64,000 nucleotides of DNA from an uncultured Planctomycetia bacterium (lineage in GTDB: Bacteria > Omnitrophota > Gorgyraeia > JABMRG01). Location: contig CAZWMG010000006.1 of assembly GCA_964634945.1 (NCBI GenBank), forward strand, positions 736-64,735, read 5' to 3'. Each line of letters begins with the position of its first letter. The first letter of the stretch is position 1. The notes beneath the pieces were generated by a model that did not search any database, was not told the origin of the DNA, and saw only the letters and a list, made by a program, of their open reading frames with translations. Below, piece after piece: positions 5,231-18,238 of the stretch. The position numbers and the translations under genes are program-made.

Positions 5231-6232
5231 ATGTTAAACATCGGATCGTATAGGCTCAAATCAAGGCTCGTTTTGGCCCCCCTTTCAGGCTGCTCTGATC
5301 TGCCATTTCGGGCAATGTGCAAGGCTCATGGCTGCAAGTTTGCGTTTTATGAGATGCTGGATGCCCATGGCTTGACCTATGGACATAAGCGCACCTTATC
5401 AATGCTGGGCTCTGACAAAGTTGACTCTCCGATTGGGGCTCAGATTTTAGGCCATGATCCTGAAAGAGTTTTAGAAGCTGCAAATATTATCATAGCCAAT
5501 TCAAAACCAAAAATAATAGATCTGAATTGCGGGTGCCCTGCCTTAAAAGTACTTAAGAAAAAGTGCGGCGCCTATCTTCTTAAAGAGCCAAGGCAGGCTG
5601 GCAAGATCATCAAGAAACTGGCATCCTCTCTCTCTATTCCTATTACAGTGAAGGTAAGAGCCGGCTGGGGTAAGGAGCATAAAAATGAGGGCTTGTTACT
5701 GGCAAAAATAGCGCAGGATAATGGCGCAAAAGGGGTATTTTTCCATGGCAGAAGCTGTTCTCAGGGGTACTCAGGAAAGACTACTTATGAGCCTATAAAA
5801 CAGGCTAAAAATGAGCTAAACATACCGGTTATTGGCAGTGGTGATATACTATCTCCTGAACTTGCTAAAGATATGCTTGATAAGACAGATTGTGATGGTA
5901 TATTAGTGGCCAGGGGCGCTTTTGGAACCCCTTGGATATTTGAACAGATAGAAAAGTACCTAAAAGACGGCCTACCTCCTTCCCCTGCGTCTTATGAAAA
6001 AATTGTAAATACAGCTAAAGAGCATTTAACTATATATAAGAATTGGAGAAAAACTACCTCAGAAAAGTACTATGTAGGACACCTAAGAAAAGTGGCGATA
6101 TGGTATTCTAAGGGCCTGCCCTACTCAAAAAGAGCGCGTGAAGACATAAGTTGCTCAAAAGGTTTTGATGAAATCATAGGTGTCTTAGATAAGCTGAAAA
6201 GTGATTATGATATCAAGTGGTTAAAAAGATAA
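5231..6232 (+). CDS. dus: tRNA-dihydrouridine synthase
   Basis: 'LAPLSGCSDLPFR' and 'IDLNCGCP' match the Dus family LAPM-AG-TD and IDxNxGCP motifs. The 333-aa length is typical. Confidence 0.85.
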   Translation: MLNIGSYRLKSRLVLAPLSGCSDLPFRAMCKAHGCKFAFYEMLDAHGLTYGHKRTLSMLGSDKVDSPIGAQILGHDPERVLEAANIIIANSKPKIIDLNCGCPALKVLKKKCGAYLLKEPRQAGKIIKKLASSLSIPITVKVRAGWGKEHKNEGLLLAKIAQDNGAKGVFFHGRSCSQGYSGKTTYEPIKQAKNELNIPVIGSGDILSPELAKDMLDKTDCDGILVARGAFGTPWIFEQIEKYLKDGLPPSPASYEKIVNTAKEHLTIYKNWRKTTSEKYYVGHLRKVAIWYSKGLPYSKRAREDISCSKGFDEIIGVLDKLKSDYDIKWLKR

Positions 6233-6260
6233 AGGATTAGGCAGAAGGATCAAGAGATAA

Positions 6261-6512
6261 TTAAGCCTGAGCTACCTTATGCAGTAATTCTGATATAAAG
6301 GTTTGGTATTTGATACCGAACTTCTTTGCCTTTTGCCTTATGCTAGCAAGATCTCCACTATTAACACGGATGTTTAATACAGCATCTTTCTTACGAGCAG
6401 CCACAGATCTTGCAATTATATCAAACTCTTTTTTTGACACATTCACATACTCTTTTTTAAGCAAAGCGTCTTCAATCGCTTTTTCATTCTTAGCTAGCTT
6501 TATTTGTCTCAT
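6261..6512 (-). CDS. brnA: BrnA-like antitoxin (RHH/CopG-like) of a type II TA pair
   Basis: 83-aa protein that overlaps the upstream toxin gene by 4 nt (ATGA). 'KYQTFISELLHKVA' is a C-terminal RHH-like segment typical of BrnA/DUF4415. Confidence 0.55.
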   Translation of the reverse strand: MRQIKLAKNEKAIEDALLKKEYVNVSKKEFDIIARSVAARKKDAVLNIRVNSGDLASIRQKAKKFGIKYQTFISELLHKVAQA

Positions 6513-6769
6513 TTTAACTTGCCCTCCTTGTAAAGCTTGGTAAATTTTCTACTCGGGTATAAAGTTTTCAAAAATATACTATCTCTATCCTCAATGTATG
6601 GCACAATCCATATATATCTTTTATAATAAAAAAGTAGTATCCTCTGATTGGACCTCTTTGGATGTTTCTTAACCGCTATAAGCTTTGCACCAATCAATTC
6701 ATCAAAAGACACAGCACGTGCCTTTTTAAGTCGTTCACTTTTTAAAATACTCCACCTAATAGTCTTCAT
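6509..6769 (-). CDS. brnT: BrnT-like toxin (DUF497 ribonuclease) of a type II TA pair
   Basis: 86 aa. 'IRWSILKSERLKKARAVSFDELIGA' resembles the BrnT N-terminus (FEWDxxKNxxNxxKHGVSFEEA). Confidence 0.6.
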   Translation of the reverse strand: MKTIRWSILKSERLKKARAVSFDELIGAKLIAVKKHPKRSNQRILLFYYKRYIWIVPYIEDRDSIFLKTLYPSRKFTKLYKEGKLK

Positions 6770-6794
6770 AAAATAGTTTCAGTATGTATACATT

Positions 6795-6808
6795 ATTGTA
6801 TATACAAT
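6795..6808 (-). promoter_or_regulatory. palindromic operator candidate upstream of brnT
   Basis: 14-nt perfect palindrome 'attgtatatacaat' about 26 nt upstream of the brnT start. Typical position for a TA autoregulation site. Confidence 0.35.
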
Positions 6809-6844
6809 ATATCAAGATTTCACATATATGTCAAGGGAAAAATC

Positions 6845-6979
6845 TGAAAGTACTCGAAGGGCCTGCCCTACTCAAAAAGAGCGCGTGAAGACATAAGCCG
6901 CTCAAAAGGTTTTGATGAAATCATAGGTGTCTTAGATAAGCTGAAAAGCGATTATGCTATTAAGTGGCTAAAAAGGTAA
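6845..6979 (+). repeat. near-identical duplicate of the dus 3' end (with an internal deletion)
   Basis: 6859..6979 matches 6112..6232 (the last ~120 nt of dus including the stop) with a few mismatches, for example 'gggcctgccctactcaaaaagagcgcgtgaagacataag...'. Confidence 0.85.
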
Positions 6980-6982
6980 AAA

Positions 6983-7255
6983 TTACAAGATTTTCCTTGA
7001 AGCCTTCTTATAGATATCTCTTCTATGCCCAACGGTTAGAACGATGATCAAGATTTGCTGATGTAAGATCTTGTATATTATACGGTAATCTCCAGAGCGG
7101 TAAGAATGCAAACCAGAAAGCCTCTTTGTTAAGCATTTTCCTATCAAAGGGTCATGGGCAATGCGCTGTATCGCGTCTTTTACTTGGCGCTTCTTCTTAG
7201 CAGATAAGGTAGTTATATTGCCTGTAGCTTCTTTTGTGAATTTAACATTATACAT
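6983..7255 (-). CDS. RelE/ParE-family toxin
   Basis: 'YRIIYKI...IIVLTVGHRRDIYKK' is the typical RelE/ParE C-terminal region. The likely start (MYNVKF, 7255) overlaps the phd stop by 8 nt. Confidence 0.6.
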   Translation of the reverse strand: MYNVKFTKEATGNITTLSAKKKRQVKDAIQRIAHDPLIGKCLTKRLSGLHSYRSGDYRIIYKILHQQILIIVLTVGHRRDIYKKASRKIL

Positions 7256-7499
7256 CACCAAAAACTTCCTCAAATGTAAAAAGCCTGCCTTCTTTTATAT
7301 CTTTTTTAGCTTTTTGGATAGAGGCTAGCATATTCTTATCAGCCATAATTTCAAGCGTCTCCAGCTCTTCCGGAGAAAGCATAACAGCCTCTGCCCTGCC
7401 ATTTCTGGTGATAATCAAGTGTTTGCCAAAATGAGCTATTTTTTTAATCAACTCAGGCAATTTGCCTCTTGCTTCTGATATAGGAACTATATAATCCAT
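7248..7499 (-). CDS. Phd/YefM-family antitoxin
   Basis: 'MDYIVPISEARGKLPELIKKI...IITRNGRAEAVMLSPEELETLEI' is Phd/YefM-like. The ATG at 7499 is preceded by 'GGAGGTGAGGCAA'. Confidence 0.65.
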   Translation of the reverse strand: MDYIVPISEARGKLPELIKKIAHFGKHLIITRNGRAEAVMLSPEELETLEIMADKNMLASIQKAKKDIKEGRLFTFEEVFGDV

Positions 7500-7520
7500 T
7501 TGCCTCACCTCCAAAGTAAT

Positions 7521-7543
7521 TGTACAATATTTTGTACAATATG
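7521..7543 (-). promoter_or_regulatory. direct-repeat operator candidate upstream of phd
   Basis: 'tgtacaatat' occurs twice (7521-7530 and 7534-7543) immediately upstream of the phd RBS. Confidence 0.35.
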
Positions 7544-7574
7544 TCAATAGCTAGTATGAAATTCCTAAAATTTA

Positions 7575-8006
7575 TTATTGAAGTTTTGATGAGTGAGAAG
7601 TAGCGCGCGTTTTCTTAAAAAATAACCAGGTATTATCTTTACCATCTTTAGGGGTAAATTTTAATAGGCAATATTGGCCTGTTAATCTCTTGCCATGCAA
7701 GTCAAATACAATCTCTTTTTTATCTGCTTTTATTAGGCCATATGTGCCTTTGTCCCATATCTCTACTGTGCCCGCGCCATAATGGCCCTGCGGTATCTCC
7801 CCTTCAAAATCAGCATAATCCAATGCATGGTCCTCAACCTTAATAGCTAGTCGCCTTACACCTGGCACTACAGGCGGTTCTTTTGGTATAGCCCAGCTTT
7901 TTAAGGCCCTTTCTCTCTCAAGCCTAAAGTCGTAATGCAGATGTGAGGCATTATGCTTTTGTACAACAAATATAAGCTGTTTGCGCTGTTTTTGATTATT
8001 TTTCAT
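7575..8006 (-). CDS. stand-alone DNA ligase D 3'-phosphoesterase (PE) domain protein
   Basis: 'FVVQKHNASHLHYDFRLE...' matches the LigD PE domain signature (QxHxA..LHYDFRLE). Confidence 0.7.
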   Translation of the reverse strand: MKNNQKQRKQLIFVVQKHNASHLHYDFRLERERALKSWAIPKEPPVVPGVRRLAIKVEDHALDYADFEGEIPQGHYGAGTVEIWDKGTYGLIKADKKEIVFDLHGKRLTGQYCLLKFTPKDGKDNTWLFFKKTRATSHSSKLQ

Positions 8007-8024
8007 ATTTGCCTAATCGTTATG

Positions 8025-8186
8025 TTAAAATTTATGGCTCACCTTAGCTCTTGGACCTTTCAATTCAAAATCTGTCTGAGTACCTAAATCCGCTGGATTG
8101 GACTTATTCTTCTTTGTCGCATGCAACTTAATTGAAGCGCAGCCACTAACAAGGGCCAATATAATAAACATAAAAAATACTCTCAT
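8025..8186 (-). CDS. small lipoprotein (about 54 aa)
   Basis: Manual translation gives MRVFFMFIILALVSGCASIKLHATKKNK...; the lipobox is 'LVSGC'. Absent from the ORF track because it is under 60 aa. Confidence 0.3.
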   Translation of the reverse strand: MRVFFMFIILALVSGCASIKLHATKKNKSNPADLGTQTDFELKGPRAKVSHKF

Positions 8187-8309
8187 ATTATAATATTATA
8201 GTTTTGTTATATAGAAATAGCAAGAATGAATTACGAATAGACATAGGAAGATTTTGTATTAGATGCTGGTTTTTAATGATATGCGATTATAATGGGAATT
8301 TTAAAAATA

Positions 8310-9224
8310 TCAGAACGAGTATGCTAATGAGGATATAACACGGAGATCATTATCTTTTGTATCTGCCGGCGGCGCCGCGTTGTAATCATCTATAAGACTT
8401 ATGCGCAGGCTTAACTTATGATTCATGGCGATATCGAGCATTGTTTCTGAGTGGATCCTGTAATCACTGAAATCCTCAAAAACAGGGTAATACAATATGT
8501 TCTGCGTGATTTTTGTGTTACTAAATAATTTTTTCTCAAAAAATGCCCTGGGAACAAGTACCCAATCCCCTTTATCCTTTATATTAGACCTGTATGAGGT
8601 ATGCTCATAACCCGCGCCTGCTTCAACCATCAGCTTTAATCTAGGCAGATCATAGAGCCAGTAACCGAGACCTGCAGCGGGTACAAACCTGTAATCTATA
8701 TCAGCAAACCTGTCGTGATCTGCCTCTATCCTATAAAAATTATACCACCTCTTCATGCTTCCAAAGCTATAAGCATATCTTCCCATACTATACCACTTAT
8801 GCGCATCCATCTTGTTGTTTGCCGAGGAATAATACATGTTACCTTTAGCTGTCCATTCGTCAATATGCTTATTCTCTCTATTAAGCAGGAAACTGCCTGA
8901 GAACTGGCTTTCACGCGTATTGCCTGTAGCGTAATTATAGCCCAATGCAACCTCTCTCTTCCATATTATATCTGTCGGATCATTGATATCTTTTCGCAAG
9001 CCATCTTCTGCTCTAACAATATGGCCTATCAAGTCTCTCTTTACCACGATTGAACCCATAGCCTCTGTCTCTACAGAAAGGCTATCCTGTTCTTCCTGCG
9101 TTATCTGCCCGCTTATCTTATCACCATTCTTAAGATATATCTCATCAGCGTAAACAGTGGCAAGAAATCCAGTAAAAAATACAATCGTTATTAAAAGACG
9201 TGTAAATATCTGATTCATATTCAA
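8310..9224 (-). CDS. outer-membrane beta-barrel protein, DUF481-like
   Basis: Signal peptide, Tyr/Gly-rich alternating pattern and C-terminal '...SLAYSF' ending in Phe. Confidence 0.5.
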   Translation of the reverse strand: MNMNQIFTRLLITIVFFTGFLATVYADEIYLKNGDKISGQITQEEQDSLSVETEAMGSIVVKRDLIGHIVRAEDGLRKDINDPTDIIWKREVALGYNYATGNTRESQFSGSFLLNRENKHIDEWTAKGNMYYSSANNKMDAHKWYSMGRYAYSFGSMKRWYNFYRIEADHDRFADIDYRFVPAAGLGYWLYDLPRLKLMVEAGAGYEHTSYRSNIKDKGDWVLVPRAFFEKKLFSNTKITQNILYYPVFEDFSDYRIHSETMLDIAMNHKLSLRISLIDDYNAAPPADTKDNDLRVISSLAYSF

Positions 9225-9346: not shown

Positions 9347-12300
9347 TTAGCTGCTTATAGCGAAACCTAAGTTTACCTTATTACGATTAGCGCGCCTTGT
9401 TACGGGACTTGTGTTGGGATATCCTAGCTTGCGCGCTACATTCATATTTTTAATAGGGATGTTTTCTACTGCTAATCTTTCAACGGCGCCTTTAAGCTCA
9501 TGAATAAATACGCTTCTCCTCGAAAGCACTCCCAATAAACTGAAATCTATCTTATGATATTTAGAGCGCCTTGTTAGCTCCTTTGATTCCTTATAGCCGA
9601 GTTTGTACGCTACATTGCATATGGTTGGCAGCTTATCTTCTTCGATTAATTCTTTAACAGCGCCTGCAACCTTATGTATAAATTTATCTCTGCTGAAAAC
9701 CACTAATCCTAATAAACTTAAATCTATACTATAATAATTCGCGAGCTTTGTTATAGGACCTGCTGTATCATAGCCTAGTTTGCGTGCTACGTTTCGCGTA
9801 ATAGGCAGTTCACCTTTGTCTGTTAATTCCTTAACAGCGCCTTCAACCTTATAAATAAAAACATCTCTACTTGTAAACAATCCTAGCAAGTTTAAGTCTA
9901 TACCATGATACTTGGCTAGTCTTGTCAAGGACCCTGTTTTCTCATAGCCTAGTTTGCGTGCTATATTTCGCGTAATAGGCAACTCTCCTTCTTCTATCAA
10001 TTCTTTAACAACACCTTTAATCTTTTGTATAGTCTTATCTCTACTGCCGCTGGAAGAAGCCTTAACAGCCCCATTAAGGGCCTTTAAAACTTCAGGATGC
10101 GCGCTTAAATACTCTTTTACTCTTGCGTCATAATCAGCCTCTTTTGCTTTTTGCATAGTAAGTTCTTCCTGCCATTTAGGTTCAATGGTTTTACCAGGAA
10201 AAGCCTTCTCAAGCCATTGAATCTGGTGCTTTGCACACCATCCATGTGAAATGTTACTTGGTATCTTTATTTCTGTTACCTCGTACGCCTTGCCGCATGT
10301 AGCGCACATTGAAACCTTAATATTTTTCCCTTTGATATACTTCTCAACTATGGGCTCAACGATGTCTCTGCTGCCTATAAAACCATGCGTTAATAAGAGT
10401 ATTTGGAATAGATGGTCATTGTTCAGGATATCCTCATCCTCTTTTATATCTAAATTAAGGGTATCGATATCACCTGCCTCATCACCATGGTAAAATGCTA
10501 ACAATGCATCCGCTATCTTAAAGTAACGTTGAAGCTTAGTATCTGCCGCAATAATAGGGCTAATAGTAGGCACTTTGCCTAAATAGATATTGCCTGTATT
10601 GCCATCTATTGTTATGGTATCGCCATTTTCGATCCTACAGGGTTTGCCAGTATTATCTGTATACACAATACCGCTGTCATCACGTGCAAAATTAGCGCCA
10701 GCACGAAGAGTTACAGCCGGTTTTATAATATCTGCTGTTCCCATTTTTTCTCTGGCTAATTCCGCGATATGGTTAATCAATGAATCTTCCTTTGTAATAA
10801 AGCCCACGGGCCAGTACATGTCAATCTGGCTGTGAAAAAATGATGAGCCCATAGCCGCAATAGGGTTATCATACTTATCAAATAAAAATCTATCGGGGTT
10901 CTCACGCACAATTAACCTTCCTGTTACAACACCCGGAGAAAGCGGAAATCCCCTTAAAACAGGCTCTATGTCACAATTAGGGCTTACTACAGGCGATTTG
11001 AGTAAGGAGATAAAATGATCTATCCGTTCCGACTCCTTTAAAACGCTTCCGCTCTCTTCGTAATCAATACTAAGAATATCTCTTGTAGCTATATCTGAAT
11101 AGCTTATCTTATCAGCAACTTCACGATACGTCAGAGTACCATTGATTCCCATATCGATCGCGTAATGGACCAGGGCCACAGGATGTACAAGAGCAGATCT
11201 TTGTTGAAGAATATACAATTTACCGCCTTCAATAGTAAATTCAATATTTCTAATATCATTGTAAACTGTCTCTAATTTCCTAGCATTCTTTTTAATAGCG
11301 GCTAATTGTGCCGGGAACATCTTTTCAAAAGTCTCTTTATAAAATATTACCTGTCCGCTTGAAGGCGTTACAACCGCAGGCCCTTGTGACTTATGAGCCA
11401 TTTCAATGTATACGCTGTTCTCGCCTGTTATCGGGTGCCTTGAAGCGGCAATACCGGTGCATGAGTTGTTATTGAGATTACCAAAAACCATCGCCTGCAC
11501 AGTAAAAGCTATATATGTGCTATCTCCTAGCATTTTTTTACTGTGCAAAAGCCGAGCTTGTTTTGAAAGATCTCCCATATCACCTTCTTGATATTTTTTG
11601 AAAGCTTCTACCGCAAGCGCTAACTGCTGCCATGGGTCCTCAGGGAATTCTATATTGTGCTTGTCTAATAGATATTTTTTTAGCTTACTAATAGTTTCCT
11701 TGTATACCAACTTCTTAGGCACCCCGTCTTTACTTATCAGTTCAAAGCCTACAAAATGGTGCGCATTATCATATTTTCTAATAAAGTTATTTTTATATAT
11801 CTCTAATATGTCATAATCCAAAGTATTGATAATGTCAACACCCAACACAGCCTCACTATAAAAGCATAAATACATTAAATACATATTGTACAATTCAACC
11901 TTATCTTCGAACCGCTTCTCCAAGGCCTTGACTGTCTCGTCATTTAAACCTATATTGAGCAATGTGGACAATTTCCCGGGCTCAACAAATGGATATCCTG
12001 CCCTGATTGAAAGAAATAGCGGTTTTTTAGCATCCCCGAAATAGCGCTCTTTTCCTGATAAAGCTTTCATCCGCTTTTCTATCTCACCTACCGCACGGCG
12101 CAATGATGCACGATCATTTGATAGAGTTCTAATCTCATCTGATGTAATTTCAGAATCGATAACAAATCCCGGAGGAACAGGCATATTCTCCAAGGCTAGT
12201 CGCATTAGGCCTGAGCCCTTATCACTCAATAGGATTTTATTCTCAGGATTGCCGTCCGCATAGCCGGGCCAAAAAAAGTGCAGGTGAGCAATGTCAGGCG

Positions 12301-12487
12301 ATAGTCGCACATCAGCTTGTAAGTGAGTATCTCTATCCGCCTCAGCCATGGCCCCTAAAATACCAGACGATGCCTGTGGTCTCAGCGCATCTATTTTTGA
12401 CTTTTTTATCTCTGCAAAGAGACAGCCTTGCCCCACACCATTGAAGGCAAATGCAACTACTATTATAAATATAATTATACTTTTCAT
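9347..12487 (-). CDS. signal-anchored PPDK/PEP-synthase-like ATP-grasp protein with a PEP-utilizer swivel domain, a Cys/His-rich module and four C-terminal tandem ~60-aa repeats
   Basis: The N-terminal hydrophobic segment is followed by 'PVPPGFVI...PLFLSIRAGYP...LLNIGLNDETV' and 'TGIAASRHPITGENSVYIE...IEFTIEGGKLYILQQRSA', matching the PPDK_N / PEP-synthase nucleotide-binding domain. 'GFPLSPGVVTGRLIV...DSLINHIAELAREKMG...IENGDTITIDGNTGNIY' resembles the phospho-His mobile domain. Next comes 'KNIKVSMCATCGKAYEV...SHGWCAKH', then four repeats of 'ELPITRNIARKLGY...T..AKYH.IDL.LLG'. Confidence 0.6.
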   Translation of the reverse strand: MKSIIIFIIVVAFAFNGVGQGCLFAEIKKSKIDALRPQASSGILGAMAEADRDTHLQADVRLSPDIAHLHFFWPGYADGNPENKILLSDKGSGLMRLALENMPVPPGFVIDSEITSDEIRTLSNDRASLRRAVGEIEKRMKALSGKERYFGDAKKPLFLSIRAGYPFVEPGKLSTLLNIGLNDETVKALEKRFEDKVELYNMYLMYLCFYSEAVLGVDIINTLDYDILEIYKNNFIRKYDNAHHFVGFELISKDGVPKKLVYKETISKLKKYLLDKHNIEFPEDPWQQLALAVEAFKKYQEGDMGDLSKQARLLHSKKMLGDSTYIAFTVQAMVFGNLNNNSCTGIAASRHPITGENSVYIEMAHKSQGPAVVTPSSGQVIFYKETFEKMFPAQLAAIKKNARKLETVYNDIRNIEFTIEGGKLYILQQRSALVHPVALVHYAIDMGINGTLTYREVADKISYSDIATRDILSIDYEESGSVLKESERIDHFISLLKSPVVSPNCDIEPVLRGFPLSPGVVTGRLIVRENPDRFLFDKYDNPIAAMGSSFFHSQIDMYWPVGFITKEDSLINHIAELAREKMGTADIIKPAVTLRAGANFARDDSGIVYTDNTGKPCRIENGDTITIDGNTGNIYLGKVPTISPIIAADTKLQRYFKIADALLAFYHGDEAGDIDTLNLDIKEDEDILNNDHLFQILLLTHGFIGSRDIVEPIVEKYIKGKNIKVSMCATCGKAYEVTEIKIPSNISHGWCAKHQIQWLEKAFPGKTIEPKWQEELTMQKAKEADYDARVKEYLSAHPEVLKALNGAVKASSSGSRDKTIQKIKGVVKELIEEGELPITRNIARKLGYEKTGSLTRLAKYHGIDLNLLGLFTSRDVFIYKVEGAVKELTDKGELPITRNVARKLGYDTAGPITKLANYYSIDLSLLGLVVFSRDKFIHKVAGAVKELIEEDKLPTICNVAYKLGYKESKELTRRSKYHKIDFSLLGVLSRRSVFIHELKGAVERLAVENIPIKNMNVARKLGYPNTSPVTRRANRNKVNLGFAISS

Positions 12488-12509: not shown

Positions 12510-15500
12510 TTAAGCGGCGCTTTGAATTGCTTTTCTTATATATGATACAGAGAGGTTTCTAGAATGCGTAATTAAACGCTCTGAGATCACAGGATGCATT
12601 TTTAGGTACTCTGCCACTCTCTCACCAACTTTAGCTTCTCTGGCTTCCTGCGCCCTAATACGTTTCAAGCGGGCAGGCCCATCTTGCTTGCTATAATCAT
12701 AGCGTTCAATGATGTTGCCTGCATCTTTAATACATTTTCCATGCGAAATACCACTTGGACCTTCGTATTTTCGCACTGCGTATATCCTGCCACATGTAGC
12801 GCACATTGATACCGTTATGTTTTTATCCTTGATATACCTTTTTACTATTTTTTCAACCAGAGCTTTATTATTTATAAGATAATACGTTAATAAGCGCATC
12901 TGAAATAGGTGGTCTTCCGTACTAATATTTACATCATTGAATATTCTCTCTAATTCTCTAGTACTGTTTTCAGGGGTCTTGTTACCCGAAGAAGAGGTTT
13001 TCTCCGTAACCGGTAAAACAGCAGTTGCAGTACCCGGGCGTATTGGAGCAAGATAACCGTTTATCCTGTTATCCTGATCCAGTCTGCGTTTCATGATAAC
13101 CTGCAATGAGCGCGCCAGAGAACTCACACCGCCAGTCTCTTTAAGTTCCGCATCGAGTAATTTTATGAATTCATCCGTGTGCATTCTTAACAAAACGCTC
13201 TTTTGCGATGCCACAACTGTCTTGCTTCTTGGAAGCTGTTTCGAATCATTGAATAATGACATAAACCTATCACGCATATCTTTATCCATATCCAAGCTCT
13301 TTATCTCTGAAATATCCATTACATTCCATATATAATAACCAGCACCTGCTATAAACTGCTGGCTTATCATGTCCTTCCTAAAAAGAGCCTTTAAATCATC
13401 TTCTGTATATAAGCTTAACGCTCTTCTAAGAATAGCCATCTCACCCAATACATGCCCCTTTCCTAATGTCTTTATACCATTCGGCATATCCGCGATACCT
13501 TCAATATTTACTTTTCCGCTTAATATTATATATACATATGGATTATCGATAGTAAGGTCTCCTTCTCTGTAGATTATATGCCCCCCTCTCATCTCCTCTA
13601 TACTACCTATAGTTGCAAACTGCTTTCTGATTAGATCCCCAAAAATAATATTTTCAGCAGTGGTCTCTATAACTGTTGACTCTTTCAGCAGGTTATCAGC
13701 CCTCACTATACTCTTACGCCTGTCAGCTCTCTTTATAACCCTCAATGATTCAAAGACCTGTGCCCTTTGGAGCCCAGGTTCATTCTGCTGGCCTGCCGAG
13801 TGGACAGTATGCACAGCACCAATATTAGCAAGCTCCTTAAACGCATCGATTAATTCCTCAGGCTCTATATGTACACCTGGCACACCATTTTCAGATATGA
13901 GAAGGTCAACACCATTTTCATAAAACTCAATAAACTTCTGCCTTAATGGGCTCTCTTTTGAAGGCATCAGAGAATCTGGTAAATAAGCGAAAATGCCTTT
14001 TTCAGTTGATATCCTAAACCCATACGTTGGCAGAGGGTGACCGAATGTTCTATTAAGAAGCATCTCCATCCCAGCAAAGAGTGACAGCGTATCATTAAAG
14101 AGAACAACTTCTCTATCCGCATCCTTTTCTGTCTTAACCAAAGGAAAGATCTTTTCAAAATCATATCTACTTATACCTGTTAAGGTGTTTAGATATTCAA
14201 ACGCTGTCTCGTAAACCGGGATAGCCGCTATCAGAGGCATTGAGCCTAATTGTCCACCATTAGCCTTTTTCAATAGTTGTTGGTAAGCAAAATCTGCCAT
14301 CCCGCCAAAGTGGTCCCAATGAACATGCGAAAGATAGAAGGCGTCAACATTATCTAAGAGTTCATTAGCCCTTATATTGCGCAAGGTCTGCGCTGAGGGG
14401 TCAACTAGAATGCCCTTGCCATTAATCGCCATTAATAAATTTGTATAATCCTGCTTACCACTAAAAGGCGTGGGATCCGCGTTACCAAAAGGCATTATTA
14501 CTAATTCATCCCTATCCTTTTCAGAGAGCTTAAACGCTTCCTCAACCATGTTGACTTGTCTTGGCGTCCATGATGAATAAAATTGATTTTCCCCGCGTGA
14601 GGCAAGGCACGCTCTGTCAATATAGTAGGCATGCGCACCCTCTCCCTCAGTGACGATAAGGCTATCTTCTGTTTTTTCTATTCTTAACGTATTAGCAGGC
14701 GTTTCCGATGAAGGCAAGCCCTTACTTAATGCAATACTGTCGCCAAGCGCCAAGACCCGAATATCGATTATTTCGTTAATTAATTTTTCTACGGCCTCGT
14801 CGTCTTTAAAAGATATATTGCCCTCTCTATTAAATAGCCCTCCGGGAAAATGAAACGACCTGTTACGGGCAAACTCCTTTGAAAGCATCTTAGCTATATC
14901 AACACTGTAACCGCTATCTATTAATTTTGCTTCATAAAATCCTGCATCATGACCAATAAAAAAAGACTTGAGCAATCTAAGAGTTTTTTTCTTCTTTATT
15001 TCTGAATCCACTACAACAGTAATTCTACCGCTTATTAACCCCTTAACAAGTACGTCTACATCATAGCCTGCATCCATAACCTCATATTTAAAAGTATCTA
15101 TCTCATCTACTTTACGCTGGTAACTCGAATAATCCTTTTCTAATGCCTTTAAATCATTGAGGAGTGCTGCATATCTTGCTGAATACCCCTTAATGATGGG
15201 ATCAAAAAACATTCTTTGAAAAAATAATCCTTCCAACACACTGCTGTTAACAAGGGGATCAAACGCCAAAAAAACAACATCGGGTTGCTCCTTAGCCTTG
15301 AGGAAGGTGTGAGAATTTTGCCTGTCATAAGCTGAAAATGATAGCGTAAATGAGCGATTGCCGTTTACATCGCCTTTTGTAGTAAGGGTAAAGTTATCCA
15401 ACAAATCAGTGCCTGAATTATCAGGATTCAACTTGTCTTGACCCGGATAAGATGCGCGCGGATTCTTAAAAACCCTTGTTTCTAAGACATCGTAAGCTTT

Positions 15501-16451
15501 TCTTAAATCCGCTCTATTATCTGTGGCCTCTTTAAACTCTTGATTCAACAGCACAAAAGCGGAATAAGCATCAGTGAAATATTTAGTCGGCGTAACTCCT
15601 AGTATCTTAATATTGCTATCTAATGAAGGGGCCTTGTCAATATATAAGTTAAGAACGCCAAAAAATATTCCTGTTTTTTTAGCGAATTTCTTTAAGTGGC
15701 CTCCTTTAAAAATTAAGTCCGCGGACCACTTAATCATCATCGCGTATGAGAGATAAGCTATGAGCTGTGGAAGTGTTGCAAATGAGGCAAACAAAGGTAA
15801 GATCGTATATGCCACAATAACAGCTGCTGCAGATAATATAATGCCCGCGCCTAAAAATGGGAGAAGTTCCCATCTACTGTTATATATTGCATTCTTTGTC
15901 TCTCTGCTTACAGAATGCGCCACTCTCTTGCCTATCGCATGTATAAAAGCGACTGGCAGATCAATTAAGCTGATCTTATTGTATATGGTAATTGTATCAG
16001 TAAACTTAAGGTATGATACCGGCAGATTCCTTGTAACTAAATTATCCGCAAATACAATCCTTATGCCCTGAATATGCTCTTTGGGTAATTTTTTTAATAA
16101 ATATATTAGAAGCGAAAGTCGGACAATAGAAAGACTGTTCGGATTATACATTATGATATTATTGTTCTCTAAGAAATCTTTGATAGTATCCGTATCTAAT
16201 AGGCTAAATTCAAGCCTTGTAGATAAGAGATCTTTAGCAATAAATTGACGCATGCCTTTTTCAAGCATCGCCTGTATTGTATAATTTTGAGGTATCGCCT
16301 TCTTAACAGGCTTGTAGCCCTGAGCATGAGTATTATCTGAAACTGAGAGCTTGTGAGAAGCTGGGCGCAGAGCAAATAAGTCAGGTGGTATACTGGCCAT
16401 AATGAGTGAAATAACCAGAAAAATTGATAAAACCCTGTAGAACTCTTTCAT
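12510..16451 (-). CDS. giant (1313-aa) membrane-anchored multidomain protein with an MBL-fold domain, a cNMP-binding-like domain and a C-terminal Cys/His-rich module
   Basis: N-terminal signal/anchor plus an internal TM pair ('LPFLGAGIILSAAAVIVAYTILPLF...'). 'AFYLSHVHWDHFGG' is the metallo-beta-lactamase HxHxDH motif. 'YVYIILSGKVNIE...GKGHVLGEMAIL' is CAP_ED (cNMP-binding)-like. The C-terminal 'KNITVSMCATCGRIYAV...SHGKCIKD' is paralogous to the module in the neighbouring gene. Confidence 0.55.
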   Translation of the reverse strand: MKEFYRVLSIFLVISLIMASIPPDLFALRPASHKLSVSDNTHAQGYKPVKKAIPQNYTIQAMLEKGMRQFIAKDLLSTRLEFSLLDTDTIKDFLENNNIIMYNPNSLSIVRLSLLIYLLKKLPKEHIQGIRIVFADNLVTRNLPVSYLKFTDTITIYNKISLIDLPVAFIHAIGKRVAHSVSRETKNAIYNSRWELLPFLGAGIILSAAAVIVAYTILPLFASFATLPQLIAYLSYAMMIKWSADLIFKGGHLKKFAKKTGIFFGVLNLYIDKAPSLDSNIKILGVTPTKYFTDAYSAFVLLNQEFKEATDNRADLRKAYDVLETRVFKNPRASYPGQDKLNPDNSGTDLLDNFTLTTKGDVNGNRSFTLSFSAYDRQNSHTFLKAKEQPDVVFLAFDPLVNSSVLEGLFFQRMFFDPIIKGYSARYAALLNDLKALEKDYSSYQRKVDEIDTFKYEVMDAGYDVDVLVKGLISGRITVVVDSEIKKKKTLRLLKSFFIGHDAGFYEAKLIDSGYSVDIAKMLSKEFARNRSFHFPGGLFNREGNISFKDDEAVEKLINEIIDIRVLALGDSIALSKGLPSSETPANTLRIEKTEDSLIVTEGEGAHAYYIDRACLASRGENQFYSSWTPRQVNMVEEAFKLSEKDRDELVIMPFGNADPTPFSGKQDYTNLLMAINGKGILVDPSAQTLRNIRANELLDNVDAFYLSHVHWDHFGGMADFAYQQLLKKANGGQLGSMPLIAAIPVYETAFEYLNTLTGISRYDFEKIFPLVKTEKDADREVVLFNDTLSLFAGMEMLLNRTFGHPLPTYGFRISTEKGIFAYLPDSLMPSKESPLRQKFIEFYENGVDLLISENGVPGVHIEPEELIDAFKELANIGAVHTVHSAGQQNEPGLQRAQVFESLRVIKRADRRKSIVRADNLLKESTVIETTAENIIFGDLIRKQFATIGSIEEMRGGHIIYREGDLTIDNPYVYIILSGKVNIEGIADMPNGIKTLGKGHVLGEMAILRRALSLYTEDDLKALFRKDMISQQFIAGAGYYIWNVMDISEIKSLDMDKDMRDRFMSLFNDSKQLPRSKTVVASQKSVLLRMHTDEFIKLLDAELKETGGVSSLARSLQVIMKRRLDQDNRINGYLAPIRPGTATAVLPVTEKTSSSGNKTPENSTRELERIFNDVNISTEDHLFQMRLLTYYLINNKALVEKIVKRYIKDKNITVSMCATCGRIYAVRKYEGPSGISHGKCIKDAGNIIERYDYSKQDGPARLKRIRAQEAREAKVGERVAEYLKMHPVISERLITHSRNLSVSYIRKAIQSAA

Positions 16452-16780
16452 GATATATCCGTTCTTCAGTAATTACAGTTTAATTATGTATTAATGATCA
16501 ATACATAATAATATTAATAAAGTTCTTTAAAAGAGTAACATAAGTTTACCAAAATGTCAATCTTAAAACCTTTTTAAAGACCATTTCTATTGTCTGCTCG
16601 TATTTAGCAGGGCTTCTATTATACTTATATTATACTATATACTATGCTTACCCCTACTTTATTATATCCTGCGCAACTAAATTATATTTAATCCCTTTGA
16701 CAAATTATTATTGAACTGGTATAATTTACATTGATTTTAATAACAATCTCAATCAATAGCATAAAAAGGGAGTCAATGTT

Positions 16781-18238
16781 ATGGAAAAGGCAGCTGTTGT
16801 GGATACAAGTACTACAGGCGGCATAGATATTGAAGATATAATGCAGAAGGCCTCTTTTGCCTCTGCTATATTTAGTCAGTTGAGCCAGGAGCATACAGAC
16901 CGCATTGTCAAGGCTGTATATGAGGCCGGATTTAAGAATAGAATTAAACTTGCAAAGATGGCTCATGAGGAGACAAAATTGGGCGTCTGGGAAGATAAGG
17001 TAATAAAAAACGTTGTCGCGACACAGTTTGTGTATGAAGACATAAAGAACCTTAAGACAGTAGGTGTTATCTCTGATGATGAAGAGAAAGGCATTATAGA
17101 GATCGCACAGCCGATAGGGCCCATCTTCGCGTTAATCCCTACGACCAATCCTACTTCAACTGTAATGTTTAAGATACTTATAGCACTAAAAACAAGAAAC
17201 CCTATCATTATAAGCCCCCACCACAGGGCAATGAAGTGCTCCAATGAAACAGCGCGCTTATGTTACGAGGCAGCGTTAAAGGAAGACGCGCCACAGGATT
17301 GCATACAATGGCTCGAAGCAAAGTCATCGGAAGGTACCCGCGCGTTAATGAAACACAAAAAACTTGCTCTTGTTCTTGCCACAGGAGGATCAAGCCTTGT
17401 CGGAGCGGCCTACAGCTCAGGTACGCCTGCTATAGGTGTTGGGCCTGGTAATGTGCCTGCCTACATCGGAGAAACAGCTGATGTAGGTTTCGCAATAGAG
17501 CAGATATTCGCATCAAAGACATTTGACAACGGCACTGTATGCGCCAGCGAACAATCTATTGTAGTAGATAAATCTCATGCTGAAAAGGCTAAAAAAGAGA
17601 TCGAAAAACGAAAGGGTTATTTCCTCTCTGATGATGAGATAAAACGCGTTGAGGCAGTAGCGTTTGATCAAGAACGCGGTTTAATGAATGCCGCTATAGT
17701 AGGCCAGTCCGCGGCCTATATCGCTAAACTAGCGAATATCGACGCACCCTCTGATGTGCGCCTGCTCATAGCGCCCCTTAAAGGCATAGGCAAAGACTAC
17801 CCCCTCTCTTCTGAGGTTCTCGCGCCAATACTGGCTTACTACATTGCTAATGATTTTGAACATGCTGTAAATCTATGCATAGACTTGAATTTTCACGGCG
17901 GCATAGGACATACTGTAAGCATCTATTCCAATGATGATAAAAAGATCAGAGAATTTGCCTTTGTTATGAACGCGGGGCGCATTGTAGTTAATACCCCTTC
18001 TTCTCAAGGCGCTGTGGGAGGTTTATACAACACCCTTCACCCATCATTTACATTGGGCTGCGGAAGCGGCGGTAAAAATATTACTACAGACAATATAACG
18101 GCAAGGCATCTACTCAATATCCAGCGCATCGCGCGCAGACGCGTTAATAGGCGCCTGGAAAAGTTTGATAAGAGCCTCTATTTTAACGAATCTATCGACA
18201 CAAAAACGCTTGAAGATGAGTTTAACCGCAACTACTAA
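16781..18238 (+). CDS. CoA-acylating aldehyde dehydrogenase (EutE/PduP/AdhE-N family)
   Basis: 'ATGGSSLVGAAYSSGTPAIGVGPGNVP' and the catalytic 'GTVCASEQS' (CxSEQ) are characteristic of this family. RBS 'aaaaagggag' precedes the ATG. Confidence 0.75.
   Translation: MEKAAVVDTSTTGGIDIEDIMQKASFASAIFSQLSQEHTDRIVKAVYEAGFKNRIKLAKMAHEETKLGVWEDKVIKNVVATQFVYEDIKNLKTVGVISDDEEKGIIEIAQPIGPIFALIPTTNPTSTVMFKILIALKTRNPIIISPHHRAMKCSNETARLCYEAALKEDAPQDCIQWLEAKSSEGTRALMKHKKLALVLATGGSSLVGAAYSSGTPAIGVGPGNVPAYIGETADVGFAIEQIFASKTFDNGTVCASEQSIVVDKSHAEKAKKEIEKRKGYFLSDDEIKRVEAVAFDQERGLMNAAIVGQSAAYIAKLANIDAPSDVRLLIAPLKGIGKDYPLSSEVLAPILAYYIANDFEHAVNLCIDLNFHGGIGHTVSIYSNDDKKIREFAFVMNAGRIVVNTPSSQGAVGGLYNTLHPSFTLGCGSGGKNITTDNITARHLLNIQRIARRRVNRRLEKFDKSLYFNESIDTKTLEDEFNRNY

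What the first reader, a model, noticed from the sequence alone, without database searches (positions are those of the whole stretch)
9347..12487. Signal-anchored PPDK/PEP-synthase-like ATP-grasp + phospho-His swivel protein lacking a PEP/pyruvate domain, ending in a zinc-ribbon-like module and four tandem repeats
The 1046-aa protein has a clear pyruvate-phosphate-dikinase-type nucleotide-binding domain (PLFLSIRAGYP...LLNIGLNDETV, IEFTIEGGKLYILQQRSA). A mobile phospho-histidine domain follows (GVVTGRLIV...NHIAELAREKMG...GDTITIDGNTGNIY). Where PPDK, PEP synthase or rifampicin phosphotransferase carry their substrate domain, this protein has a Cys/His cluster (CATCG...SHGWCAKH) and four ~60-aa repeats. 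It also starts with a hydrophobic signal or anchor, which is unexpected for an ATP-dependent enzyme. I do not recognise this architecture as a described enzyme. It could be a phosphotransferase that modifies a small molecule or a partner protein.
Basis: partly seen in the sequence, partly recalled or inferred. Interest (0 to 1): 0.85.

Follow-up and report, generated by a model that had tools for sequence, protein, structure and literature searches.

The report
Truncated PPDK-like kinase fused to HTH repeats
An uncultured Omnitrophota bacterium encodes a protein with the ATP-binding and phospho-histidine halves of pyruvate phosphate dikinase but not its pyruvate-binding half; instead it carries a short hydrophobic leader, a small zinc-binding module and four basic helix-turn-helix repeats, an undescribed combination whose phosphate acceptor is unknown.

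Summary

**What is there**
- Residues 69-660 are a PPDK ATP-grasp plus swivel domain. Evidence: TIGR01828 at 9.5e-64, covering profile positions 7-525 of 865, and Foldseek to PPDK structures at 3e-39.
- No PEP/pyruvate TIM barrel exists in the protein or anywhere in the window.
- The four repeats are 58-aa basic helix-turn-helix units, a type found in arrays in other large Omnitrophota proteins.
- The Cys/His cluster is a about 125-aa module. It is 44% identical to the C-terminus of the adjacent 1313-aa MBL/cNMP-binding protein and is absent from the two other family members.

**How it probably arose**
- In two related genomes the neighbour is one unsplit ORF ending in the same zinc module and/or HTH array, with no PPDK-like gene beside it.
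- So the PPDK cassette was probably inserted into that ORF, and the new protein inherited its HTH tail.

**Is it active?**
- Conserved: K22, R92, T253, E323, Q335, R337 and the catalytic His.
- Replaced: R134/R135, E279/D280, D321 and the GG before the His.
- Most likely it is a retooled autophosphorylating His (di)kinase, like M. tuberculosis VadK, acting in trans.
- Its cellular location, its acceptor and whether it is active at all are unproven.

The family has only three sequence clusters. I rate it a new variant of a known kind.

The parts
9347..12487 (-). Whole ORF, 1046 aa plus stop: the PPDK-like protein. It is identical to database protein P0001.
   Evidence: The same protein occurs on 5 independent contigs.
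12422..12487 (-). N-terminal leader, residues 1-22: MK, then a 12-residue hydrophobic run, then NGVGQ and a conserved Cys. It looks like a signal peptide or a short anchor.
   Evidence: Kyte-Doolittle peak at residues 1-7 only. Conserved in P0002 and P0003. AF2 predicts a helix at residues 2-15 with low confidence.
12377..12388 (-). ALRP motif, residues 34-37. It follows the leader and is shared with the leader of the neighbouring big protein.
   Evidence: only these two ORFs in the window carry it.
11078..12283 (-). PPDK-type ATP-grasp nucleotide-binding domain, residues 69-470. Retained: K90, R162, G171, T344, E416, Q428, R430. Replaced relative to PPDK: L204/M205, P370/A371, N414.
10508..10972 (-). 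Swivel (phospho-His carrier) domain, residues 506-660. The candidate phospho-His is H573 (codon 10769-10771), in the motif TKEDSLINHIAELAR.
   Evidence: Alignment to PPDK His455. H573 is invariant in 36 sequences. Match to 2fm4 at TM 0.72. Pfam PEP-utilizers is sub-threshold.
10073..10447 (-). Cys/His (zinc-ribbon-like) module, residues 681-805, with ligand pattern C728-x2-C731 ... H748-G-x-C751-x2-H754.
   Evidence: 44% identical (E 3e-26) to residues 1170-1293 of the neighbour. Absent from P0002 and P0003. Present in P0140 and, twice, in P0135.
10046..10057 (-). SSSG motif, residues 811-814, within K-x-SSSG. It marks the start of every HTH array in this protein group.
9350..10027 (-). Four tandem helix-turn-helix repeats of about 58 aa, residues 821-1046. 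Units: 9854-10027, 9677-9853, 9503-9676, 9350-9502. The array is basic (pI 9.9, net charge +18).
12510..16451 (-). Upstream partner gene, 1313 aa, 22 nt away. Order of parts: leader with ALRP, TM hairpin, an unknown domain of about 400 aa, an MBL-fold (Apyc1-like) domain, a cNMP-binding domain, and a zinc module (12573-12956).

Best explanation
The protein is a retooled, truncated descendant of pyruvate phosphate dikinase. [quoted passage not shown]

**Most likely mechanism (inferred)**
- The ATP-grasp domain uses Mg-ATP to (pyro)phosphorylate His573 on the swivel domain.
- The swivel domain then passes the phosphoryl group to an acceptor that is not on the same polypeptide. Alternatively, the phospho-His state itself acts as a switch.
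- This is the logic shown experimentally for the truncated PPDK VadK, and for the dikinases RPH, HpeHI and GWD.

**Where it probably acts (inferred)**
- The basic C-terminal array of four HTH units most likely tethers the enzyme to a polyanion, probably DNA.
- The N-terminal leader, which it shares with the adjacent MBL/cNMP-binding protein, probably sends both proteins to the same place.

**How it arose**
- The gene was created when a leader plus PPDK cassette was inserted into a single large ancestral ORF. The insertion lay between that ORF's zinc module and its HTH tail.
- The two proteins of the window are therefore expected to work together.

**Shown versus inferred**
- Shown: domain identities, residue conservation, the shared modules and the split/unsplit gene architectures.
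- Inferred: catalytic activity, the acceptor, DNA binding and cellular location.
For: **PPDK origin and fold.**

**No TIM barrel.**

**Core catalytic residues are retained.** The equivalents of K22, R92, G101, T253, E323, Q335, R337 and His455 are invariant in all 36 aligned sequences, including the three family members. Those three share only 321 of 592 invariant columns among themselves.

**The substitutions look selected, not random.** The PPDK-consensus residues that changed are mostly replaced by the same residue in all three members, for example GG to SD, ED to PA, D to N, GG to DS. This points to a new function rather than decay.

**The swivel domain is the best-conserved part.** It is 84% identical to P0002, against 64% for the ATP-grasp domain and 55% for the HTH array.

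**Precedent.** VadK, a PPDK without the PEP domain, autophosphorylates His422 in an ATP- and Mg-dependent way (PMC13400623).

**Link to the neighbour**
- The two genes are 22 nt apart on the same strand.
- They share the zinc module.
- They share the leader plus ALRP motif.
- The same HTH tail, ending ...FAISS, is fused directly to the neighbour's orthologues P0140 and P0141. In those genomes no PPDK-like gene is adjacent.

**HTH identity and charge.**

**No sign of recent foreign origin.** The base composition of the cassette matches its neighbours.
Against: **Active-site losses**
- The G-rich loop that positions the His (T/SxxGGxxxH; PMC12167813) reads T-K-E-D-S-L-I-N-H here. The TS before the His is IN.
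- PPDK-invariant R134/R135, E279/D280, R286 and the GKR after R337 are lost, and D321 is N.
- Only 92 of 199 PPDK-conserved columns survive.
- Pfam PEP-utilizers is below its cut-off.

**Location problem.** The leader has the shape of a cleavable Sec signal: a 12-residue h-region with small residues at -3 and -1. That would put an ATP-dependent enzyme outside the cytoplasm.

**Gaps in the evidence**
- No acceptor domain or acceptor candidate was identified.
- The family has only three sequence clusters from one narrow lineage, so conservation statistics are weak.
- Gene adjacency is not universal for the neighbour's family.
Confidence: 0.45

Rival explanations
1. Pseudoenzyme or sensor. The PPDK-derived module no longer transfers phosphate. 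It serves as a nucleotide-binding or purely structural module that regulates or scaffolds the HTH array and the neighbouring MBL/cNMP protein.
For: - Loss of the GG loop before the His, and of E279/D280, R134/R135 and R286; D321 is N.
- 107 of 199 PPDK-conserved columns are changed.
- The Pfam swivel model is below its cut-off.
- There is no acceptor domain.
Against: - The His, and every residue shown or proposed to hold ATP and Mg, are invariant in all three members: K22, R92, T253, E323, Q335, R337.
- The His-containing segment DSL(I/V)NHIAELAR is among the most conserved stretches.
- In RPH, even loss of the Mg-binding Glu did not abolish activity (PMC4844700).
Confidence: 0.22
2. Exported effector. 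The leader is a true Sec signal, and the protein leaves the cell together with the neighbour. It would act in or on another cell: binding foreign DNA through the HTH array and consuming ATP in a futile ATP to AMP cycle, or phosphorylating a host target. This would fit the proposed host-dependent lifestyle of Omnitrophota.
For: - The leader has a short h-region and a c-region with small residues at -3 and -1, conserved in the family.
- Many HTH-array proteins of the phylum also start with hydrophobic leaders.
- The neighbour carries an Apyc1-like MBL domain, a family known from anti-defence cyclic-nucleotide hydrolysis.
- The locus lies in a variable region with toxin-antitoxin genes.
- RPH mutants that cannot phosphorylate their substrate still hydrolyse ATP (PMC4844700).
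Against: - The flanks of the neighbour's TM hairpin are Lys/Arg-rich. By the positive-inside rule this places its bulk in the cytoplasm.
- ATP, SAM and cNMP-dependent domains and HTH units are typical of cytoplasmic proteins.
- There is no secretion-system gene next to the locus and no PADLOC hit for this protein.
- No topology predictor was available.
Confidence: 0.13
3. Ordinary PPDK split into pieces. The PEP/pyruvate domain would be encoded elsewhere in the genome and would complete a normal PPDK.
For: Two-component dikinases exist, such as HpeHI and PpsAB (PMC12167813). Only 64 kb of the genome could be inspected.
Against: - No TIM-barrel homologue exists in the window or in the syntenic loci.
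- The residues I recall as belonging to the Pi/PPi site of PPDK (R135 region) are lost.
- The protein scores 216 bits against an equivalog cut-off of 843.
- It carries a leader and an HTH array, which make no sense for a central-metabolism enzyme.
Confidence: 0.04
4. Artefact. The ORF would result from a frameshift or mis-assembly that fuses unrelated pieces.
For: The source is evidently a metagenome assembly, and the gene lies next to a variable region.
Against: - The identical 1046-aa protein is found on 5 contigs from different runs.
- The orthologue P0002 is indexed in 34 blocks of the contig collection, of which 24 contigs were read.
- The stop of the upstream gene and the start MK... of this gene are conserved across genomes that are 57% identical.
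Confidence: 0.01

Closest known systems
Pyruvate, phosphate dikinase (PPDK, EC 2.7.9.1; TIGR01828; e.g. C. symbiosum 1KBL, T. brucei 2X0S)
   Same: - The ATP-grasp and central swivel domains are in the same order, at about 30% identity over about 590 residues.
- The equivalents of K22, R92, T253, E323, Q335, R337 and His455 are conserved.
   Different: - No PEP/pyruvate TIM barrel.
- R134/R135, E279/D280, R286 and GG-x-TS are replaced, and D321 is N.
- It has extra parts: a leader, a zinc module and an HTH array.
- It scores far below the equivalog cut-off (216 versus 843 bits).
VadK / Rv1127c of Mycobacterium tuberculosis (truncated PPDK; NCBIfam NF004531)
   Same: It is derived from PPDK and consists of an ATP-binding domain plus a phospho-His domain without the PEP domain. 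VadK was shown to autophosphorylate His422 with ATP and Mg and to act on partners in trans (PMC13400623).
   Different: - The NF004531 score is 183 bits against a cut-off of 456, and only the ATP-grasp part is matched. This suggests an independent truncation in a different phylum.
- VadK is not reported to have a leader, a zinc module or an HTH array.
Rifampin phosphotransferase and two-component small-molecule dikinases (RPH, HpeHI, CreHI, PpsAB)
   Same: They use the same ATP-grasp plus swivel-His chemistry with a non-pyruvate acceptor. There are structural matches to RPH (E 1e-10) and HpeI (3e-7).
   Different: - These enzymes have a dedicated substrate-binding domain (RIF-BD type) and a different domain order. 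No such domain is present here.
- Their T/SxxGGxxxH motif is not kept here.
Glucan, water dikinase (GWD)
   Same: Conceptually similar: a dikinase module attached to repeated polymer-binding modules, so that it acts on a polymer.
   Different: GWD uses carbohydrate-binding modules at the N-terminus and has the ATP-grasp domain at the C-terminus. Here the binding modules are HTH units at the C-terminus. This is an analogy only; no sequence test was done.
CRP/FNR-type regulators and multi-HTH DNA binders (AraC/MarA, sigma region 4, Fis/NtrC)
   Same: - The unsplit ancestor combines a cNMP-binding domain with downstream HTH units, as CRP does.
   Different: - There are four to eleven HTH units in tandem, each with a long N-terminal helix.
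- The arrays sit in very large leader-bearing multi-enzyme proteins.
- No Pfam HTH family reaches its cut-off on the window protein.

Membership tests
Pyruvate, phosphate dikinase (TIGR01828 equivalog) | PPDK_N ATP-grasp nucleotide-binding domain | tested here: met
   Pfam PF01326 scores 53 bits against a cut-off of 27. Foldseek to PPDK structures gives 3e-39.
Pyruvate, phosphate dikinase (TIGR01828 equivalog) | C-terminal PEP/pyruvate-binding TIM barrel (PF02896) | tested here: not met
   No hit. The TIGR01828 alignment stops at profile position 525 of 865. tblastn with PPDK C-termini finds nothing in the window.
Pyruvate, phosphate dikinase (TIGR01828 equivalog) | Whole-protein score above the curated cut-off | tested here: not met
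   215.7 bits against a cut-off of 843.45.
Pyruvate, phosphate dikinase (TIGR01828 equivalog) | PPDK-invariant active-site residues, including R134/R135, E279/D280 and D321 | tested here: not met
   They are L204/M205, P370/A371 and N414 in all three members. K22, R92, T253, E323, Q335 and R337 are kept.
PEP-utilising enzyme mobile (swivel) domain, PF00391 | Catalytic His in the aligned position, on the swivel fold | tested here: met
   H573 aligns with His455 and is invariant. The match to 2fm4 has TM 0.72 and rmsd 3.5.
PEP-utilising enzyme mobile (swivel) domain, PF00391 | T/SxxGGxxxH G-rich loop and a score above the Pfam cut-off | tested here: not met
   The sequence is T565-K-E-D-S-L-I-N-H573, so GG has become DS. 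Pfam gives 16.7 bits against a cut-off of 23.1.
VadK-type truncated PPDK (NF004531) | Score above the curated cut-off for the equivalog | tested here: not met
   183.1 bits against 456. The match covers only residues 83-468.
VadK-type truncated PPDK (NF004531) | ATP- and Mg-dependent autophosphorylation of the swivel His | not testable with these tools
   This needs purified protein. The reference assay is in PMC13400623.
RPH-type small-molecule dikinases | Dedicated substrate-binding domain of the RIF-BD type between or beside the ATP-grasp and swivel domains | tested here: not met
   RPH structures match weakly: E 1e-10, query-normalised TM 0.21-0.36, 11-12% identity. Pfam finds no further enzyme or substrate-binding domain; the rest of the protein is accounted for by the zinc module and the HTH units.
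Helix-turn-helix DNA-binding domains | Tri-helical HTH fold | tested here: met
   [not shown]
Helix-turn-helix DNA-binding domains | Significant match to a curated HTH sequence family | tested here: inconclusive
   The window protein gives only sub-threshold hits: KfrA_N, Phage_Cox and HTH_50. Longer arrays in homologues accumulate HTH_3, MarR_2, KfrA_N and LexA scores, but no single stretch is significant. Foldseek E-values are above 0.2.
Helix-turn-helix DNA-binding domains | Binding to nucleic acid | not testable with these tools
   Only indirect evidence: pI 9.9 and net charge +18 over 241 aa.
Sec-type signal peptide | n-h-c organisation with small residues at -3 and -1; cleavage and export | tested here: inconclusive
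   The n-region MK(K/S), a 12-residue h-region and N-G/S-V/A-G before Q are conserved. No predictor was available, and cleavage cannot be tested.
Zinc ribbon / treble-clef type module | Conserved CxxC ... HGxC ligand set | tested here: met
   C728, C731, H748 and C751 are conserved in the neighbour, in the Orphnella big protein, in P0140 and in both copies in P0135. Fold and metal binding were not tested.

The most novel reading that the evidence does not exclude
The protein could be a polymer-directed dikinase, a counterpart of glucan water dikinase in which helix-turn-helix repeats replace carbohydrate-binding modules. The HTH array would dock it on DNA or on nucleoid-bound proteins, and the swivel His would phosphorylate the polymer or a DNA-bound partner.

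Alternatively, it could be exported with its MBL/cNMP partner as a two-part effector that binds foreign DNA and drains ATP in a host or prey cell of this Omnitrophota bacterium.

Either reading would be a new use of the PPDK phospho-His machine.
Probability: 0.12. Interest if true: 0.85.

Novelty: new variant of a known kind. Interest (0 to 1): 0.55.

Why it matters
**A second, independent truncation of PPDK.** Here a central-metabolism enzyme has lost its pyruvate domain and been turned into something else. The M. tuberculosis case, VadK, was characterised only in 2025-26. In this case the module is wired to a DNA-binding-type repeat array and to a cyclic-nucleotide-related partner.

**A previously undescribed protein class.** The analysis exposes a group of large Omnitrophota proteins that share:
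- a hydrophobic leader, often with an (A/T)LRP motif;
- interchangeable enzyme domains (MBL fold, methyltransferase, PPDK-like);
- a small zinc module;
- a K-x-SSSG junction;
- tandem HTH arrays.

**A natural Rosetta-stone experiment.** Both split and unsplit versions of the same locus exist. This links the PPDK-like protein functionally to its neighbour.

**Limits.** The family is very small, with three clusters in one uncultured lineage. Nothing about activity, substrate or location has been demonstrated.

Tried and rejected
**Searches that found nothing or little**
- A word-indexed homology search with the C-terminal 361 aa returned nothing. The exhaustive HMMER search then found 17 relatives, so the earlier result was a sensitivity limit, not absence.
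- Two scans of GTDB representative genomes and one of viral contigs found no relative. The organism could therefore not be named directly. Omnitrophota is inferred from the Ca. Orphnella occulta homologues and shared synteny.
- PADLOC gave no hit for the PPDK-like protein. For the neighbour it gave only weak hits in the cNMP-domain region.
- Promoter and terminator scans were no better than shuffled sequence, so the operon structure rests on the 22-nt spacing only.

**Ideas considered and rejected**
- LysM or SLH identity for the repeats: the model is all-helical and has no strands.
- A missed TIM barrel.
- A frameshift artefact.
- Recent horizontal acquisition of the cassette judged by composition: GC and GC3 equal those of the neighbours.
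- A canonical lipoprotein signal: the residues before the conserved Cys are GQ(G), which is not a lipobox. The conserved Cys remains unexplained.


Full report
**1. What is at the coordinates**

The + strand of 9347-12487 is full of stop codons. The ORF is on the minus strand, 1046 codons, starting with ATG at 12487.
- It lies 22 nt downstream of a 1313-aa ORF (12510-16451, minus strand). No convincing Shine-Dalgarno sequence is visible between them.
- An identical protein (P0001) is present on five independent metagenomic contigs.
- Only two other sequence clusters in a 5.8-billion-protein collection share the architecture: P0002 (969 aa) and P0003 (837 aa). Both are annotated as Candidatus Orphnella occulta, phylum Omnitrophota, and are about 57% identical.
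- Every other hit is a canonical three-domain PPDK at about 30% identity over the N-terminal 56% of the query.
- Gene order around the locus is shared with the Orphnella contigs: EF-G, YchF, YajQ, STAS, aldehyde dehydrogenase, big protein, PPDK-like, DUF481, LigD_N, Phd/ParE.
- The window therefore comes from a relative of that genus. I could not name the organism, because two scans of GTDB representative genomes found nothing.

**2. The PPDK-derived part (residues 69-660)**

*Sequence and structure evidence*
- Pfam PPDK_N passes its cut-off (53 bits against 27).
- The PPDK equivalog TIGR01828 aligns residues 76-661 to profile positions 7-525 of 865 at 9.5e-64. The score of 216 bits is far below the 843-bit cut-off.
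- Solved PPDKs match at about 1e-36.
- An AlphaFold2 model of residues 1-680, built on 36 aligned sequences, has pTM 0.74.
- Foldseek matches that model to PPDK structures at 3e-39 over about 600 columns and to the isolated PPDK phosphoryl-carrier domain (2fm4) at TM 0.72. Matches to RPH, PEP synthase and HpeI are far weaker.
- No PEP/pyruvate TIM barrel is present in the protein, and none is encoded anywhere in the 64-kb window (tblastn at E<=1).

*Residues retained, in C. symbiosum numbering*
- K22 = K90
- R92 = R162
- G101 = G171
- T253 = T344
- E323 = E416
- Q335 = Q428
- R337 = R430
- His455 = H573

These are invariant in all 36 aligned sequences.

*Residues replaced*
- R134/R135 are L204/M205.
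- E279/D280 are P370/A371.
- R286 is lost.
- D321 is N414.
- The GGKG motif reads SDKG.
- The swivel motif GGMTSH reads EDSLINH.

Overall, only 92 of 199 columns that are at least 90% conserved among PPDKs are kept. Most replacements are the same residue in all three family members, which looks like selection for a changed function rather than decay.

The G-rich loop T/SxxGGxxxH is described as a key element that orients the His (PMC12167813). Its loss is the strongest argument against activity. From my own recollection of the PPDK mutagenesis literature, R135 belongs to the Pi/PPi site. I could not verify this with the paper search. If it is right, the Pi-dependent step of PPDK is probably gone.

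**3. The Cys/His module (residues 681-805)**
- The ligand pattern is C728-x2-C731 ... H748-G-W-C751-x2-H754.
- The module is missing from P0002 and P0003.
- It is 44% identical (E 3e-26) to residues 1170-1293 at the C-terminus of the neighbouring 1313-aa protein, and similar to the C-terminus of the Orphnella 1704-aa orthologue.
- A 276-aa metagenomic protein (P0135) consists of two such modules, with CxxC ... SHGxCxxC.
- It is therefore a portable zinc-ribbon-like module of this protein group, not a substitute for the PPDK substrate domain.

**4. The repeats (residues 821-1046)**
- Tandem Repeats Finder sees a 174-nt period.
- An HMM built from 44 units finds four units here, with E-values from 1e-22 to 7e-12, and none elsewhere in the window.
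- An exhaustive HMMER search of 1.8 billion representative proteins found the same unit in arrays of roughly 3-11 copies, counted by a simple sequence motif, in large proteins of 811-4679 aa. Two of these are labelled Omnitrophota/Omnitrophica; the others carry no taxon label.
- On those longer arrays, many Pfam HTH families accumulate score without any single significant stretch.
- The AlphaFold2 model of the array has pLDDT 87.6. Each unit is one long helix followed by three short ones.
- The array is strongly basic (pI 9.9, net charge +18), whereas the rest of the protein is neutral to acidic.
- DNA binding is a reasonable inference but has not been shown.

**5. The leader**
- Residues 1-22 are MK, a 12-residue hydrophobic run, N-G-V-G-Q and a Cys. 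This is conserved in the family.
- Some 12-15 residues further on is an (A/T)LRP motif.
- The neighbour starts the same way (hydrophobic run, then DLFALRPASH). So do all its orthologues, its paralogue P0142 and, in the form G-I-R-P, the HTH-array protein P0124.
- The shape suggests a cleavable Sec signal. That is hard to reconcile with ATP-, SAM- and cNMP-dependent domains and HTH units.
- The Lys/Arg-rich flanks of the neighbour's TM hairpin (residues 194-245) argue, by the positive-inside rule, that its bulk is cytoplasmic.
- I could not settle the topology with these tools.

**6. Relation to the neighbour, and how the gene arose**

The neighbour's family has six clusters at 52-57% identity. 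Module mapping and contexts give four architectures:

| Source | Body of big protein | C-terminal modules of big protein | PPDK-like gene downstream |
|---|---|---|---|
| P0140 | leader, TM hairpin, unknown domain, MBL, cNMP | zinc module, K-x-SSSG, HTH x3, ending ...FAISS | none adjacent |
| P0141 | same | methyltransferase, K-x-SSSG, HTH x5, ending ...FAISS | none adjacent |
| Orphnella | same | methyltransferase, zinc module, stop | leader, ATP-grasp, swivel, SSSG, HTH x4 |
| Window | same | zinc module, stop | leader, ATP-grasp, swivel, zinc module, SSSG, HTH x4 |

- The HTH tail of P0141 is 54% identical to that of the window protein, right down to the last residues.
- The zinc module of P0140 is closer to the copy inside the PPDK-like protein (53%) than to the copy at the end of the window's big protein (43%).
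- The simplest history is that a leader plus PPDK cassette was inserted between the zinc module and the HTH array of a single ORF. The insertion split that ORF. The zinc module was duplicated in the window's lineage, or its second copy was lost in Orphnella.
- Base composition gives no sign of recent foreign origin.
- The split and unsplit forms are Rosetta-stone-type evidence that the two window proteins act together.

**7. Mechanism**

The best-supported reading (confidence about 0.45) is an ATP-dependent autophosphorylating His (di)kinase acting in trans, tethered by its HTH array and working with the MBL/cNMP protein.
- The closest experimental precedent is M. tuberculosis VadK. It is a PPDK lacking the PEP domain that autophosphorylates His422 with ATP and Mg and regulates partner enzymes (PMC13400623).
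- RPH and HpeHI show the same swivel chemistry with other acceptors (PMC4844700; PMC12167813).
- The window protein is not a member of the VadK equivalog (183 bits against a cut-off of 456). It most likely arose independently.

The rivals are:
- a pseudoenzyme or nucleotide sensor (0.22);
- an exported effector (0.13);
- a split ordinary PPDK (0.04);
- an artefact (0.01).

**8. Verdict**
- The architecture is undescribed, but it belongs to a known mechanistic kind (PPDK-type phospho-His dikinases), and a truncated precedent exists. I therefore rate it a new variant of a known kind.
- Interest is moderate (0.55). The domain combination, the insertion history and the wider Omnitrophota class of leader-bearing HTH-array proteins are unusual. 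Against that, the family is tiny, comes from uncultured organisms, and nothing functional has been demonstrated.

Noticed in passing
window 12377-12388 and 16362-16373 (minus strand); also P0125, P0139-P0142, P0124: A shared N-terminal leader type: a hydrophobic run of about 12 residues followed within 5-15 residues by (A/T)LRP-x-(S/A). P0124 has the variant G-I-R-P. In the window, only the PPDK-like ORF and its neighbour carry it. It may be a sorting or processing signal specific to this Omnitrophota protein class.
   Followed up: partly
window 10046-10063 (residues 809-814) and neighbour residues 1150-1156; P0002, P0003, P0140, P0141: A conserved K-x-SSSG motif sits exactly at the junction before every HTH array. 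In the split big proteins it follows the cNMP-binding domain. It could be a linker, a cleavage site or a modification site.
   Followed up: partly
C-termini: window 9350-9364 (...FAISS) and 12513-12530 (...AIQSAA): Proteins of this class end in similar short tails: FAISS, AIQSAA, AIKSSA and ...AI. Whether this is a C-terminal signal or degron is unknown.
   Followed up: no
window 12510-16451 (minus strand): The 1313-aa neighbour is itself unusual. In order it has: the leader, a two-helix TM hairpin (residues 194-245), a conserved domain of about 400 aa with no Pfam match, an Apyc1-like MBL-fold domain, a cNMP-binding domain and the zinc module. Orthologues add a class I SAM methyltransferase, and one hits the PADLOC model mad2 at 7e-7.
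   Followed up: partly
window 5231-9224 compared with L011 and L013: The stretch between the Dus gene and the big gene varies among related genomes. The window has a CopG-like pair (6261-6769), ParE/Phd (6983-7499), a stand-alone LigD 3'-phosphoesterase (7575-8006) and DUF481 (8310-9224). L011 has Dus directly after the unsplit big gene. L013 has MFS, MscS and DUF481. This looks like a flexible region rich in toxin-antitoxin genes.
   Followed up: partly
P0135 (276 aa, metagenomic): A small protein made of two copies of the Cys/His module alone (CxxC ... SHGxCxxC). The first copy is followed by an HSSG motif and the second by an STG motif. This shows that the module is an independent unit.
   Followed up: no
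P0121, P0122, P0124 (HTH-array proteins from other Omnitrophota): These combine the HTH arrays with a divergent SAM-methyltransferase-like region (motif ILDVGAN / DLGAGT). P0121 and P0124 also have hydrophobic N-terminal leaders; P0122 is a partial sequence whose N-terminus is missing. This suggests a broader class of enzyme plus HTH-array proteins in the phylum.
   Followed up: partly
window 16697-16725 (+ strand): A perfect sigma-70 consensus, TTGACA-17-TATAAT with an upstream TG, lies 56 nt before the acetylating aldehyde dehydrogenase gene (16781-18238). That gene is divergent from the big gene.
   Followed up: no
L011 8083-9975: In the genome with the unsplit 1887-aa big protein, a 630-aa NHL-repeat beta-propeller protein is inserted between the aldehyde dehydrogenase gene and the big gene.
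   Followed up: no
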